IMG/VR virus record: IMGVR_UViG_3300029735_000262
Span: 1 to 35,868 of that record
Strand: one strand, 5' to 3'
Source: a virus
Taxonomy: Duplodnaviria > Heunggongvirae > Uroviricota > Caudoviricetes
DNA: 35,868 nucleotides
Below are positions 30,001 through 33,000 of this stretch, one piece after another. The position numbers were made by a program. Every line of letters starts with the position of its first letter. The stretch's first letter is position 1.

Positions 30001-33000
30001 ATGCGTTAGTTTCTCCACAGTCACGACACGCCACGGCGCCCGGAGCTGCACACTCGCGGGCGTCATTACTTTCTGAAATGCAAAAAATTTTGTAGACCAG
30101 TGCTGCATGCTCCTGCAGCTTCGAAATTGAGAGGTACAGCTCGTCGTTAATTGCTGTCTTCTCATGCGGTTCCACTACACCGTCTTCAATTGCTGAACGA
30201 ATCTGTTTTGAATAACTGCCGATCTGTTCAATGACCTCCAGCAGGCGTTGGTTGATATCGGCGTTGTCCACATCCTCGACATCAGGAAGAGACACAAAGA
30301 CGCCATTTGCAGACTGCGCCACAGCGTCAGCAATGAAGTGAGTTCCACCAGCACGTTGCAAAATCATTGCCCATCCCAGCGGGAAAATCTGATCGCCATC
30401 GGCACGAAGGCGGTTAAATAATGCGTTCTCTGTTACATCCAGCCAGTCAGCAGCTTCAGCGTACCCCCCCGGCAACGCTGCGATAGTTTTTCTGACAGCT
30501 TTCACGTACCACTCAGGCTGTTTTTCTACTTTCCAGTGATGCTTACCCACGGTTCACCTCCTGTTCCTGTGGTTTAAACCCATTCTGGTTTTGGCTAGAT
30601 TGAAAACGTGCCGGATAAAGAATCTGCATTTCGCTGACTTCACCCTTAAAAAAATTGGCTAAACGTTCTGCAAGCTCGATAGATGGAATCTGCTCCAGCC
30701 TCTCAATACGACTCAACGTCGCTGGATTGACTTGAACACCCGCAGCAACATGCTGCAAAGTGAAACCATGCGCCTTACGCACATTTCGTAATGGTGATTG
30801 CATACGCCCTCCAAATATTGCGCGTTATGCATGTTATTTCACGCAATTATTTTGCGCAAGTTGATTTGCTTATCACGCAATAAAGAAATGTAATAAACGC
30901 ATGAACATAGGAAACCGAGTCAGACAACTTCGCCAAGCGAAGAACATGAAAATCGCCGATCTCGCTGAAGCGATAGGAGTAGATGCGGCGAACATCTCGC
31001 GCTTAGAAACGGGTAAGCAAAAACAATTTACCGAACAAACACTGAGTAATATTGCCAAGAGCTTAGGTGTTGATATTGCTGATCTCTTTACCTCTGCCCA
31101 CAAAAGTAATACTGTATATAAAAACAGTAATAATGAGGATGTTGCGCAGGTGAAGGATGTGTTCCGTATTGAAATGCTGGATATCAGTGCCAGTGCGGGA
31201 AATGGCCTTATCCAGGGCGGTGATGTCATTGATGTGATTCATGCCATCGAATACAGAACTGATAATGCTGTATCAATGTTCGGCGGACGACCAGCCAATC
31301 ACATCAAAGTTATCAACGTTCGTGGGGACAGTATGTGTCCAACCATTGAGCCAGGAGATCTCATCTTCGTTGATGTCAGCATCAATCAGTTTGATGGTGA
31401 TGGTATATATGTCTTTGGTTTTGATGACAAAATATACGTTAAAAGACTTCAAATGATTCCTGACAAACTGCTGGTGATTTCTGATAACCAGATTTACCGT
31501 GAATGGGGAATTACTAGCGAAAACGAACACCGATTCATGGTCTTTGGAAAGGTCTTAATCAGTCAGTCGCAAACCCTTAAGAGACATAATTAACCTCAAT
31601 ATCCCATCCATCGGCCACCGAAAGGTGGCTTTTTATTACCCATAAATTTGCATATCTCGCAAATATCACTTGCATATCTCGCAATTTAATTTTATCTTTT
31701 GTTCCAGACCAACTACAGGATTACAACAAAATCTGGTTGCAACACGGTGCATGTGTCGTAAGCAGTCAGTAAATGTCAAAAACGAACAGGCAGGACGCCC
31801 ACGAAGTAGCCGCCTGGGGCATATGAAGTCCAGGATGATTCGTTAGCAACAAAAAAGCGCCCTACAGGACGCTTAGCTCTTTAACAATCTGGTCCCCTTC
31901 AACAAGTAACTGATAACTTGAGGAGGTGTGAAATGCACAAAACAGAACCCAAAATCGTCGCGCCTGGCTACACAGATGAGGAAATTTATGAGTGGATGAC
32001 AAAGAAGCTGGCAGCTATAAACCAGCTTCGTGAAGTGCTGTCTTATCGACAGGAAACAATAGACTCCTTAAAAAAACTGGATCAGGAAATCACGGTTTTA
32101 TCACAGGATGTTACTTTAGATATTGTGCAGACAAATTAGGATCCCATTCATTTTCGTCAAAATCATCAAAGTGATGAATTTGTGATCTCCAGTCTCGATA
32201 ATCTAAAAATTTCTGGGCGGTTACGCTTATTTTATCAAGCGTGAGTTCATCCTGAATTGAAAGAAGAAGTTCATCAAATTTCATCTCATTAATCTGCTTT
32301 GGCATCCAGTGATGCTTCATCAGAATAAGGTGAACCAGAGCCTTTTTCCCATTCAACTGATTATAGGGAGTGCCGAATTTCTTCCGGTGCTCATGTAAGA
32401 CAAGGTCCAGAAGAGTAAGTAATGTTGCCCTTGATTCAACTTTGCTTATTTCGACTGATGACACTACCCCACTGATTTCAATGCCCCGATACTTTCCAAC
32501 ATTTTCACAGTGGGATTTGTACAACGTGTAGATATTACCGGACATTTCTTTTCCTTTTGCGTTGTTGGGGATAACCAGATTAACCGAATCCTTGTTGTTG
32601 GGGAATAACCAGGTCCACCTCGCCTGATGTGGCTAAAAGCAGGCACATAACAGCTAAGTATTTTTAACCAGAGAGAATCCTTAGCGTTGTGGTGAATGCG
32701 GCTCAGCGCACGCGGGTTAAGGTTGAGGCTGACAGTCGACCTTCTGTGGATACCCACCCGTCTGGTGTGCAACCTTCGCCAGGCACCGGGAGGCACCCGG
32801 CACCACAACTTTATGCTGTGTGTAGTCCCGGCGGTACCAGTTTGTACCCTTGCTTCCGGCTGGTACCGTCCTTTTTACAAAACAGAGAAGAGCATCACCG
32901 GACGACGGGCTCATAACCCAATCCATCCGGGCGGCTGCCACCGCAGGTGTTCTTCTCTGTTTTGTGGAGAAACTAATCGGCCTTGCAGGGTCGATATGAT

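What the first reader, a model, noticed from the sequence alone, without database searches (positions are those of the whole stretch)
31933..32545. Convergent, 3'-overlapping gene pair immediately downstream of cI (immunity-region cargo slot)
Downstream of cI and its terminator, in the position lambda uses for rexAB, a 68-aa plus-strand ORF (good RBS) and an AT-rich 144-aa minus-strand ORF converge and overlap by 29 bp at their 3' ends. The 144-aa gene is antisense to the putative early-left transcript and has its own upstream region with two 18-bp direct repeats (32561-32612). Neither protein shows a motif I recognise. Convergent overlap suggests antisense-coupled regulation, as in toxin-antitoxin or exclusion modules expressed from the prophage.
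Basis: partly seen in the sequence, partly recalled or inferred. Interest (0 to 1): 0.7.

Follow-up and report, generated by a model that had tools for sequence, protein, structure and literature searches.

The report
Conserved convergent prophage gene pair cassette
The two overlapping, face-to-face genes next to the phage repressor are real and form a mobile two-gene cassette of unknown function. It recurs in many gut-bacterial prophages and is built like recently described "defence gene plus own antidote" modules.

Summary
A 68-aa ORF (31933-32139, +) and a 144-aa ORF (32111-32545, -) converge and overlap by 29 bp. They lie just beyond cI, its terminator and two OL-like operators in an SfII/SfIV/CPS-53-type lambdoid prophage.

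Both ORFs are genuine genes. The large one belongs to the uncharacterised NCBIfam "ECs1072 family". It gives a confident all-alpha AlphaFold model with no structural relative. The small one is a single-helix protein about 40% identical to YdfC of the Qin dicBF operon.

Compared with SfV and SfII, segment 31845-32614 is one exchangeable cassette.

The main new result is that the same pair is conserved in the same convergent, 3'-overlapping arrangement. It occurs in 13 further loci at down to 24-35% identity, in three other slots: Q-holin, cII-O of O157 Sakai Sp4, and the early operon of a P2-like prophage. The small gene always runs with the lytic operon and the large gene always runs antisense to it.

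This matches the "noncontiguous operon" layout of Tai/Ati (phi80) and Tha/Ith (80alpha), but there is no homology to phi80 Tai/Ati.

Best reading: a lysogen-expressed effector plus a lytic-cycle antagonist. Function and expression are inferred, not shown.

The parts
31613..31630 (+). Intrinsic terminator of cI (context; left of the cassette).
   Evidence: GGCCACCGAAAGGTGGCT followed by TTTTATTACC.
31648..31684 (.). Two identical 15-bp OL-like operators (TTGCATATCTCGCAA at 31648 and 31670). The putative pL (TTGCAT 31670 - 17 nt - TATCTT 31693-98) overlaps the second one.
   Evidence: two exact copies, plus an 87% copy in OR at 30866. The promoter assignment is my reading of the sequence, an inference.
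31845..32614 (.). The exchangeable cassette. Homology to SfV and SfII stops at 31844 and resumes at 32615.
   Evidence: blastn of the window against the SfV, SfII, SfIV and E. albertii loci.
31855..31874 (-). Strong minus-strand intrinsic terminator at the left end of the cassette (AAGCGTCCTGTAGGGCGCTT + TTTTTGTTGCT). It is the likely 3' end of the 144-aa gene's transcript, which would then be antisense to the whole 68-aa gene.
31886..31905 (+). Third copy of the repeat unit (AATCTGGTCCCCTTCAACAA), inverted, 28-47 nt upstream of the 68-aa ATG. Its orientation relative to that gene is the same as the orientation of the direct repeats relative to the 144-aa gene.
   Evidence: I4: 20 nt, 75% complementary to 32562-32581. 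Significance uncertain.
31933..32139 (+). 68-aa YdfC-like gene, co-oriented with the early-left operon. The predicted protein is a 14-residue N-terminal segment followed by one long helix.
   Evidence: - phrog_1744, E 6e-35.
- 39-41% identity to YdfC genes.
- hhalign against the sb50-like partner family: probability 89%, E 2e-6.
- AlphaFold2 pLDDT 88, helix 15-67.
32004..32029 (-). Minus-strand hairpin inside the 68-aa coding sequence (9-10 bp stem, weak U tract). A possible first terminator of the 144-aa transcript.
32111..32139 (.). 29-bp 3' overlap. The small gene's TAG lies exactly where distant homologues have the TGG of a W-D-P motif that is encoded palindromically (TGGGATCCCA) on both strands.
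32111..32545 (-). 144-aa ECs1072-family gene, antisense to the early-left operon. The product is soluble and all-alpha.
   Evidence: - NF033230: 157.8 bits against a cut-off of 70.
- phrog_5286.
- AlphaFold2 pLDDT 90.4, pTM 0.86.
- Maximum KD19 hydropathy 0.84.
32561..32612 (-). Two direct repeats (18 and 19 bp) in the 69-bp upstream region of the 144-aa gene. Candidate operator or 5'-UTR element; no consensus sigma-70 promoter was found.
   Evidence: The repeat structure is partly retained in the 67%-identical locus L095.
32656..32879 (+). STnc100-like structured RNA in the conserved right flank (context). The same element lies on the promoter side of the large gene in other loci.
   Evidence: - Window: 42.6 bits, below the gathering score of 47.
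- L006: 108 bits.
- L097: 78.8 bits, and L096: 46.2 bits.

Best explanation
Segment 31845-32614 is a self-contained mobile two-gene cassette. It is inserted in the leader of the cI-controlled early-left operon of an SfII/SfIV/CPS-53-type prophage.

It is organised as a "noncontiguous operon". The 144-aa ECs1072-family gene has its own upstream region and runs antisense to the lytic operon. The 68-aa YdfC-like gene is part of that operon and converges on it.

**Proposed working (inferred)**
1. In the lysogen pL is repressed. The 144-aa protein is made from its own promoter. Its transcript ends at the minus-strand terminators inside or behind the small gene.
2. On induction, pL transcription runs head-on through the 144-aa gene and silences it by polymerase collision and antisense RNA. 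In the common Q-holin version, Q-modified late transcription does this.
3. The same transcription produces the small single-helix protein, which probably binds and neutralises the large protein.
4. By analogy with Tai/Ati and Tha/Ith, the large protein is most likely a prophage-expressed effector against superinfecting phages, and the small protein is the phage's self-immunity factor.

**Shown:** the anatomy, the cassette boundaries, the homologies, the conservation of the pair and of its orientation, and the embedded terminators.

**Inferred:** expression timing, protein-protein antagonism and defence activity.
For: 1. **Pair conservation.** Besides the window, 13 loci carry both genes. They are always convergent and overlap at their 3' ends.
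   - Eleven were tabulated together, with overlaps of 64-110 bp: E. albertii, ST64B, Klebsiella phage KPP5665-2, Serratia, two Photorhabdus, Providencia, and several E. coli and Klebsiella prophages.
   - O157 Sakai Sp4 has an unannotated partner (HMM E 1.5e-4).
   - A P2-like prophage has a 131-bp overlap (partner HMM E 0.0026).
2. **Orientation rule.** In all four kinds of slot the small gene is co-oriented with the lytic operon and the large gene is antisense.
3. **Expression timing of the small gene.** In 8 of 8 Q-holin loci a tR'-like intrinsic terminator ends 18-48 nt before the small gene's ATG. Promoter-like sites lie just after Q. There the small gene is the first Q-dependent late gene. 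In the window it is the first ORF after the operators.
4. **Termination of the large gene.** In 8 of 8 Q-holin loci an intrinsic terminator for the large gene lies 9-44 nt past its stop. It is encoded in the small protein's conserved KEKAALEERL codons. The window has minus-strand hairpins at 32029..32004 and 31874..31855.
5. **One mobile unit.** The two genes move together as one cassette relative to SfV and SfII.
6. **Experimental precedents for this layout.**
   - phi80 taiEcA is transcribed against the Q operon, which contains the small counter-defence gene atiEcA. Tai is made in the lysogen and Ati in the lytic cycle (PMC11364771).
   - In 80alpha, tha and ith form a noncontiguous operon next to cI (PMC11087260).
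7. **Transcription in a lysogen.** ECs1072 transcript was detected and growth-phase regulated in uninduced O157 Sakai (PMC2241611). This is weak evidence.
Against: - No expression or phenotype data exist for this cassette.
- No hit to any PADLOC defence model.
- No homology to phi80 Tai/Ati (hhalign probability below 1%).
- The pairing is not obligatory. YdfC-type genes in Qin, PPompW and Evi have no large partner. One 151-aa-type large gene (L095) has no small partner.
- The window's small protein lacks the C-terminal tail of the canonical partners (stop at the W codon). It shows only modest constraint: about 13 nonsynonymous against 9 synonymous variable sites among 84 copies. It is frameshifted in E. 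albertii.
- No consensus promoter was found for the 144-aa gene.
Confidence: 0.45

Rival explanations
1. Reverse polarity, a safeguard or addiction reading. The small YdfC-like protein is the harmful lytic-cycle effector, a host-takeover factor like its operon neighbours DicB, DicF and Kil. The large gene, through its protein and/or its antisense transcript, is the lysogen's antidote against leaky expression.
For: - YdfC homologues sit in the toxic dicBF-type early operon beside DicF, DicB and Kil (PMC5069750).
- The large gene's transcript would cover the small gene's 3' part, or in the window the whole small gene, as antisense RNA.
- The small gene is gated by pL or by tR'.
Against: - No toxicity has been reported for YdfC. 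PMC5069750 lists it as of unknown function.
- YdfC-type genes persist in Qin-type prophages without any large partner.
- The large protein is the more strongly conserved, well-folded component.
Confidence: 0.15
2. Two functionally unrelated neighbours. The small gene is an ordinary early or late phage gene. The large gene is an independent moron that inserts antisense next to it. The co-occurrence reflects linkage and shared recombination boundaries.
For: - Each gene occurs without the other in some genomes.
- Short "boundary" sequences are shared between otherwise different contexts. Window 32615-32645 matches the 31 nt upstream of ydfC in phage Evi.
- STnc100-like elements flank several slots.
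Against: - The pair keeps the same order, orientation and 3' overlap in four kinds of slot. It does so down to about 25-35% identity of the large protein and about 15-20% of the small one, including a P2-like phage.
- The large gene's terminator is built into the small gene's conserved codons. This indicates long co-evolution as one unit.
Confidence: 0.2
3. The pair is a developmental regulator of the phage itself, for example tuning late transcription or lysis timing, rather than an anti-phage or host-directed module.
For: The commonest position is immediately behind tR' and in front of the holin-endolysin cassette. A conserved inverted repeat (TTGTTA..TAACAA) lies upstream of the large gene in those loci.
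Against: - The same pair also occurs at pL (the window), between cII and O (Sakai Sp4), and in a P2-like early operon, far from lysis genes.
- It associates with unrelated Q families (PF06323, PF03589) and unrelated holin families.
- Closely related phages (SfV, SfII) lack it entirely, so it is accessory.
Confidence: 0.1

Closest known systems
Tai/Ati of phage phi80 (tail-assembly inhibition and its counter-defence; PMC11364771)
   Same: - The immune gene has its own promoter and is transcribed against a Q-dependent lytic operon.
- A small counter-defence gene lies next to it within that operon.
- The immune protein is made in the lysogen and the antidote in the lytic cycle.
- The system occurs in prophage moron slots of Enterobacterales.
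   Different: - No sequence relationship (hhalign probability 0.3-0.4%).
- TaiEcA is about 204 aa, against 144 aa here.
- In phi80 the two genes are divergent, with overlapping 5' ends (L105 5366-5980 minus strand, 5961-6191 plus strand). They are not convergent with overlapping 3' ends.
- The target of the ECs1072 protein is unknown.
Tha/Ith of Staphylococcus phage 80alpha (PMC11087260)
   Same: A noncontiguous operon beside cI, in which mutually exclusive antisense transcription couples an immunity protein to a small protein inhibitor and to the lysogeny/lysis state.
   Different: - There the immunity gene (a HEPN RNase) lies in the cI operon and the inhibitor is the antisense gene. Here the larger gene is the antisense one.
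- No HEPN motif or significant HEPN fold match was found (Foldseek E at least 1.4).
- Different host phylum.
YdfC of the Qin prophage dicBF operon (ydfA-ydfB-ydfC-dicF-dicB-ydfD; PMC5069750)
   Same: - The 68-aa protein is 39-42% identical over its whole length.
- Both are early genes downstream of a repressor-controlled promoter.
- An STnc100-like element follows in both contexts.
   Different: Qin, PPompW and Evi loci have no ECs1072-family gene next to ydfC. YdfC's function is unknown.
Lambda rexAB, P22 sieB and BstA (prophage exclusion genes near the immunity region; own knowledge and PMC8585504)
   Same: Accessory genes beside the repressor that are thought to act, or do act, in the lysogen against other phages. 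BstA also has a cognate self-immunity element.
   Different: - rexAB lie between cI and OL and are co-transcribed with cI. RexB is a polytopic membrane protein.
- Here the cassette lies beyond the operators, is antisense to pL, and both products are soluble.
- No Pfam or PADLOC hit.
Type I toxin-antitoxin loci with convergent 3'-overlapping transcripts (e.g. txpA/RatA and bsrG/SR4 of Bacillus; own knowledge)
   Same: Convergent transcription units whose 3' ends overlap by about 100 nt, giving an RNA duplex.
   Different: In those loci one partner is a non-coding RNA and the toxin is a small hydrophobic peptide. Here both partners are conserved, hydrophilic proteins.

Membership tests
NCBIfam NF033230 'ECs1072 family phage-associated protein' (144-aa ORF) | Full-length match to the family HMM above the curated cut-off. 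| tested here: met
   157.8 bits against a cut-off of 70, residues 4-144 on profile positions 2-142. RefSeq annotates the identical protein WP_000016389.1 in this way.
YdfC family (68-aa ORF) | Full-length sequence similarity to YdfC of Qin-type prophages. | tested here: met
   - tblastn: 39-41% identity over residues 1-66, E 2e-9 to 3e-9.
- 42% identity to 'protein YdfC [E. coli]' P0176.
- Gapless alignment.
- No curated NCBIfam or Pfam model matched.
Noncontiguous operon (antisense gene nested in an operon) | A gene with its own upstream region lies in the opposite orientation between co-oriented genes of one operon. | tested here: met
   The order is operators and putative pL (31648-31698), 68-aa gene (+), 144-aa gene (-), then yfdP/Q/R...xis-int (+). 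The same layout occurs in the Q-holin, cII-O and P2-like slots.
Noncontiguous operon | The operon transcript actually reads through the antisense gene, and the two transcripts regulate each other. | not testable with these tools
   This needs strand-specific RNA-seq of the lysogen with and without induction. Only predicted terminators and promoter-like sites are available.
Tai/Ati immunity system (phi80) | Homology of the large protein to TaiEcA and of the small protein to AtiEcA. | tested here: not met
   hhalign of A3 against phi80 gp52 gave probability 0.3%. hhalign of A7 against phi80 gp51 gave probability 0.4%. There was no phi80 hit in tblastn. Assigning gp52 and gp51 as orf63 and orf64 is my inference from position, size and orientation.
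Known anti-phage defence families (PADLOC-DB v2) | A match to any defence-protein HMM. | tested here: not met
   no families for either protein at E up to 1.
Type II toxin-antitoxin module | Two co-directional, co-transcribed genes forming one autoregulated operon, with a recognisable toxin or antitoxin fold. | tested here: not met
   The genes are convergent. There are no Pfam TA domains. Foldseek matches to HepT/MNT have E of at least 1.4 and TM-score 0.23.
Type I toxin-antitoxin module | A small hydrophobic membrane peptide toxin plus a non-coding antisense RNA. | tested here: not met
   Both products are hydrophilic (GRAVY -0.47 and -0.50; maximum 19-residue hydropathy 0.84 and 0.29). Both are conserved as proteins.
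Lambda RexAB-type exclusion | Located between cI and OL and co-transcribed with cI; RexB is a multi-pass membrane protein. | tested here: not met
   The cassette lies beyond the cI terminator and the two operator copies. The 144-aa gene is on the opposite strand to cI. There is no TM segment and no Pfam hit.
HD/HDOD-like helical fold | Structural superposition on HD-superfamily domains together with the H..HD..D metal ligands. | tested here: inconclusive

The most novel reading that the evidence does not exclude
The ECs1072-family/YdfC-like pair is a previously unrecognised, widespread prophage immunity/anti-immunity system of Enterobacterales. Its effector has a new all-alpha fold. The system is carried as a compact convergent cassette whose transcription terminator and C-terminal W-D-P motif are dual-coded on both strands. 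It hops between the pL, cII-O, Q-holin (the Shiga-toxin slot) and P2 early-operon positions.
Probability: 0.35. Interest if true: 0.75.

Novelty: new member of a known kind. Interest (0 to 1): 0.62.

Why it matters
**Prevalence.** The exact cassette in this context is present in at least 401 of 5,426 complete E. coli genomes. Diverged versions sit in the Q-holin slot of many Escherichia, Salmonella (ST64B), Klebsiella, Citrobacter, Serratia, Proteus, Providencia and Photorhabdus prophages.

**Annotation gap.** One partner or the other is often unannotated, as in ST64B, KPP5665-2 and Sakai Sp4.

**If it is a defence/self-immunity pair.**
- It would add a new protein family to the small set of prophage systems known to use noncontiguous-operon logic.
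- It would give a function to the YdfC family.
- It would be relevant to phage therapy and to prophage competition in pathogens.

**Independent of function.** The dual-coded terminator and the W-D-P palindrome form a compact example of overlapping-gene constraint.

**Testability.** The hypothesis can be tested directly with one deletion, two expression plasmids and a phage panel.

Tried and rejected
**Domain and family searches**
- Pfam and PADLOC scans of both proteins found nothing.
- Pfam scans of ten of the weaker and longer members from the representative-library search found nothing.
- An exhaustive HMMER search of 1.84 billion representatives found only 120 clusters, all single-domain proteins of about 130-200 aa. 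There are therefore no informative domain fusions.

**Fold searches of the confident 144-aa model**
- Foldseek against the PDB: best E 1.4.
- Foldseek against BFVD: best E 0.79.
- The afdb50 library was unavailable.
- The recurring HEPN/MNT and HD/HDOD entries are below significance and the catalytic motifs are absent. I did not adopt either reading.

**Other leads**
- Homology to phi80 Tai/Ati was rejected.
- SfV's P4-like RNA-mediated immunity (Roberts 2007, cited in PMC3475682; details from memory) is a different element. C4/isrK RNAs map to the orf37 "immunity region" of the pR operon in the E. albertii relative, and that region is absent from this window.
- The viral-contig scan returned only identical copies of the large gene. 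It was useful for polymorphism counts but not for diversity. Because those loci were selected for identity to the large protein, they cannot be used to estimate dN/dS of the large gene.
- The consensus promoter scan found no convincing promoter for the 144-aa gene.
- Literature searches for ECs1072, the RefSeq accessions, and lambdoid defence hotspots found no functional study of either family.
- The reading that the ORFs are spurious was rejected on the homology evidence.
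Full report
**1. Setting**

The window is an SfII/SfIV/SfV/CPS-53-type lambdoid prophage.
- megablast of 31594-33013 finds SfIV, SfII, SfV and many E. coli prophages at 97-99% identity.
- RefSeq and phage annotations give the following order:
  - on the minus strand: PerC-like, O-like replication gene, DUF4222, cII-like (YmfL) and cro;
  - on the plus strand: cI, followed further right by yfdP, yfdQ, yfdR, yfdS-like, yfdT, xis and int.
- In window coordinates, cro is 30543-30803 (-) and cI is 30901-31593 (+), with HTH and S24 peptidase domains.
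- The early-left operon therefore runs rightward on the + strand.
- cI ends with an intrinsic terminator at 31613-31630.
- Two identical 15-mers, TTGCATATCTCGCAA, then follow at 31648 and 31670. They match an OR site at 30866.
- I read these as OL, with a putative pL (TTGCAT-17-TATCTT, 31670-31698). This promoter assignment is an inference.
- Homology to the hetero-immune phages SfIV and SfV begins at 31778. This is consistent with the immunity-specific block ending there.

**2. The observation**

- The 68-aa ORF is 31933-32139 (+) and has a GAGGAGG ribosome-binding site.
- The 144-aa ORF is 32111-32545 (-).
- The overlap is 29 bp.
- The large gene is 38.6% GC, against 50.9% for the window.
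- Two direct repeats lie at 32561-32578 and 32594-32612. They are identical apart from one inserted A.
- The only correction concerns position. The pair lies beyond the operators, inside the putative pL transcription unit. It is not in the lambda rexAB position between cI and OL.

**3. Both ORFs are real genes**

*The 144-aa protein*
- It matches phrog_5286 end to end (E 1.5e-90).
- It matches NCBIfam NF033230, "ECs1072 family phage-associated protein", a hypothetical equivalog (157.8 bits against a cut-off of 70).
- A profile search finds about 80 clusters at 90% identity, all in Enterobacterales.
- An exhaustive search of 1.84 billion representatives finds only 120 clusters, all single-domain.
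- AlphaFold2 with a 50-sequence alignment gives a confident all-alpha model (pLDDT 90.4, pTM 0.86, seven helices).
- The model has no significant structural neighbour:
  - Foldseek against the PDB, best E 1.4;
  - Foldseek against BFVD, best E 0.79.
- It has no Pfam or PADLOC hit and no membrane segment.

*The 68-aa protein*
- It matches phrog_1744 (E 6e-35).
- It is 39-42% identical, without gaps, to YdfC. YdfC is the third gene of the DicA-repressed ydfABC-dicF-dicB operon of Qin-type prophages.
- YdfC's function is unknown (PMC5069750).
- Its model is a 14-residue N-terminal segment followed by one long helix.
- The ORF is intact in 83 of 84 cassette copies examined.
- Its polymorphism pattern suggests modest purifying selection: about 9 synonymous against 13 nonsynonymous variable sites.

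**4. The two genes are one exchangeable cassette**

- Against SfV and SfII, homology stops at 31844 and resumes at 32615. Those phages carry unrelated DNA in between: orf33 in SfV and a 63-aa minus-strand ORF in SfII.
- The 770-bp cassette contains, in order:
  1. a strong minus-strand terminator (31874..31855);
  2. the small gene;
  3. the large gene;
  4. 69 bp of upstream DNA filled by the direct repeats.
- An inverted third copy of the repeat unit lies 28-47 nt upstream of the small gene's ATG. Its meaning is unclear.

**5. Key finding: the convergent overlapping pair is ancient and mobile**

*Q-holin slot*
- Distant homologues of the large protein (24-35% identity) occur in:
  - Salmonella phage ST64B;
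  - Klebsiella phage KPP5665-2;
  - prophages of Serratia grimesii, Photorhabdus and Providencia;
  - several E. coli and Klebsiella prophages.
- In every one of these, the large gene converges on, and overlaps by 71-110 bp, a 78-93-aa gene.
- That partner's product carries the consensus PYFFNPGM(T/S)xEQLEDWLxQQ...NRLxKEKAALEERL...LSFPWDPSP.
- Independent annotations give the two genes adjacent locus tags, for example EAMG_01711/01712 and L7572_005580/005581.

*The partner family is homologous to the window's 68-aa/YdfC family*
- The alignment is gapless from the N-terminus.
- Pairwise BLASTP gives E 1e-4.
- hhalign gives probability 89% and E 2.2e-6.
- An HMM built only from the distant partners picks out the window ORF at E 1e-3. 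The reciprocal search picks out the Serratia partner at E 1.4e-3.

*Position within these loci*
- The pair sits between the antiterminator Q and the holin. The Q proteins belong to unrelated families, PF06323 and PF03589.
- This is the slot that stx occupies in Shiga-toxin phages.
- An STnc100 RNA element often lies on the promoter side of the large gene. It is also reported 75 nt downstream of stx2 (PMC12370729).

*Two further slots*
- In O157 Sakai Sp4, ECs1072 itself (now ECs_5703) lies between the cII-like gene and the replication gene, antisense to the pR operon. An unannotated convergent partner faces it (HMM E 1.5e-4).
- In a P2-like prophage, a distant family member lies antisense in the early operon. 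A convergent partner-like ORF (QPFVYSGDLSRKELIKWL; E 0.0026) overlaps it by 131 bp.

*The rule and its exceptions*
- In all four kinds of slot the small gene is co-oriented with the lytic operon and the large gene is antisense.
- Qin, PPompW and Evi carry ydfC without a large gene.
- One 151-aa-type large gene (L095) has no partner.

**6. Fine structure**

- In 8 of 8 Q-holin loci a tR'-like terminator ends 18-48 nt before the small gene's ATG. Promoter-like sites lie just downstream of Q. The small gene is therefore the first Q-dependent late gene there.
- In the same 8 loci an intrinsic terminator for the large gene lies 9-44 nt after its stop. It is encoded on the opposite strand by the small protein's most conserved motif, (K)EKAALEERL. 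Wobble or compensatory variants occur in Providencia and Serratia.
- Both proteins carry W-D-P within the overlap, because the palindrome TGGGATCCCA reads W-D-P on both strands.
- In the window and in E. albertii the large gene has CCT instead of CCC at this proline, a synonymous difference. On the other strand this gives TAG exactly where the partner's TGG (W) codon falls in the gapless alignment.
- The window's 68-aa protein thus lacks the roughly 17-residue tail, and the overlap is 29 bp rather than 64-131 bp.
- In the window the large gene is followed by a hairpin with a weak U tract inside the small gene (32029..32004). A strong terminator follows at 31874..31855. Its mRNA would therefore be antisense to most or all of the small gene.
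- Upstream of the large gene, the Q-holin loci share TTGATAttGTTAAaTCGCCAAaaGTAACAa. This includes a -35-like hexamer and an inverted repeat TTGTTA..TAACAA, and lies 25-30 nt before the ATG.
- The window clade has the direct repeats instead. No consensus promoter was detected there.

**7. Interpretation**

- The anatomy is that of a noncontiguous operon: an antisense gene with its own control region nested in an operon.
- This layout has been shown experimentally to couple a lysogen-expressed immunity protein to a small inhibitor made in the lytic cycle:
  - in phi80 (TaiEcA/AtiEcA within the Q-controlled late operon; PMC11364771);
  - in 80alpha (Tha/Ith beside cI; PMC11087260).
- I therefore favour the same logic here (confidence 0.45):
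  - the ECs1072-family protein is made in the lysogen;
  - lytic transcription (pL in this window, Q-modified pR' elsewhere) silences it head-on and simultaneously makes the YdfC-like protein, which probably neutralises it.
- The effector's activity and target are unknown.
- A weak hint that the large gene is transcribed in a lysogen comes from uninduced O157 Sakai. ECs1072 transcript was detected there and fell at the transition from exponential growth (PMC2241611).

*Rivals*
- The two genes are unrelated neighbours (0.2).
- Reverse polarity: the small protein is the harmful lytic effector and the large gene is the safeguard (0.15).
- The pair is a phage-developmental regulator (0.1).
- A classical type I or type II toxin-antitoxin system, RexAB, and Tai/Ati membership were each tested and not met.

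**8. Novelty and verdict**

- Both protein families are catalogued but uncharacterised.
- I found no paper describing their pairing or function.
- The kind of system, a prophage noncontiguous-operon pair, is known. This would be a new and widespread member of it, with an effector whose predicted fold has no known relative and an unusually tight dual-coding design.
- Interest is moderately high because the hypothesis can be tested directly and the cassette is common. At least 401 of 5,426 complete E. coli genomes carry it in this context.

Noticed in passing
window 32615-33013 (STnc100-like hit 32656-32879, +); second weak hit 34258-34437 (+): The conserved right flank of the cassette is GC-rich (54.6%). 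It matches the prophage sRNA family STnc100 just below threshold (42.6 bits against 47). It ends in a terminator-like hairpin, followed by a long 25-nt-arm hairpin (32877-32901 / 32941-32965) directly before yfdP. RefSeq annotates this stretch as a frameshifted hypothetical CDS, but it is more likely structured RNA. A weaker STnc100-like hit lies between yfdQ and yfdR.
   Followed up: partly
window 32615-32645 against L007 (phage Evi) 3448-3478: A 31-nt stretch bordering the cassette on the right is 93.5% identical to the 31 nt immediately upstream of ydfC in the Evi phage (90.6% in the PPompW phage). Window 32688-32715 also matches the STnc100-like region just downstream of DicF in those phages. 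These look like shared recombination "boundary" sequences between different moron slots.
   Followed up: partly
window 31886-31905 and 32561-32612: The repeat unit upstream of the 144-aa gene (CTGGTTAT(T)CCCCAACAAC in gene orientation, two copies) has a third, related copy (CTGGTCCCCTTCAACAA). That copy sits in the same relative orientation and at a similar distance upstream of the 68-aa gene. It could be a shared operator or 5'-UTR element, or a chance match.
   Followed up: partly
L005 (ST64B) 3281-3715 (+); L006 (KPP5665-2) 3318-3791 (+); L104 (Sakai Sp4) about 14167-14674 (+): Members of the pair are missing from public annotation. The ECs1072-family gene is unannotated in ST64B and KPP5665-2. 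The small partner is unannotated in O157 Sakai Sp4, where its ORF stays open for about 169 codons across the antisense of ECs_5703.
   Followed up: yes
window 29216-29413, inside the O-like replication gene 28698-29654 (-): Tandem repeats coding SDASK/SDPSK motifs produced spurious mir-5880 hits on both strands. They probably represent origin iterons inside the replication initiator gene, as in lambda O.
   Followed up: no
L096 (E. albertii SfV-like prophage) 3464-3652 (+): isrK and C4 antisense RNA families hit strongly (64 and 82 bits) inside the Phage_ASH "immunity region" gene of the pR operon. This is consistent with the P4-like RNA-mediated immunity reported for SfV. That block is absent from the present window, which has a DUF4222 gene there instead.
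   Followed up: partly
L007/L008 (Evi, PPompW) 3742-4149 (+) and 4127-4360 (-): Downstream of ydfC in Qin-type phages there is another convergent pair, of 135 aa and 77 aa, overlapping by 23 bp. It is unrelated in sequence to the ECs1072 family and lies just before DicF.
   Followed up: no
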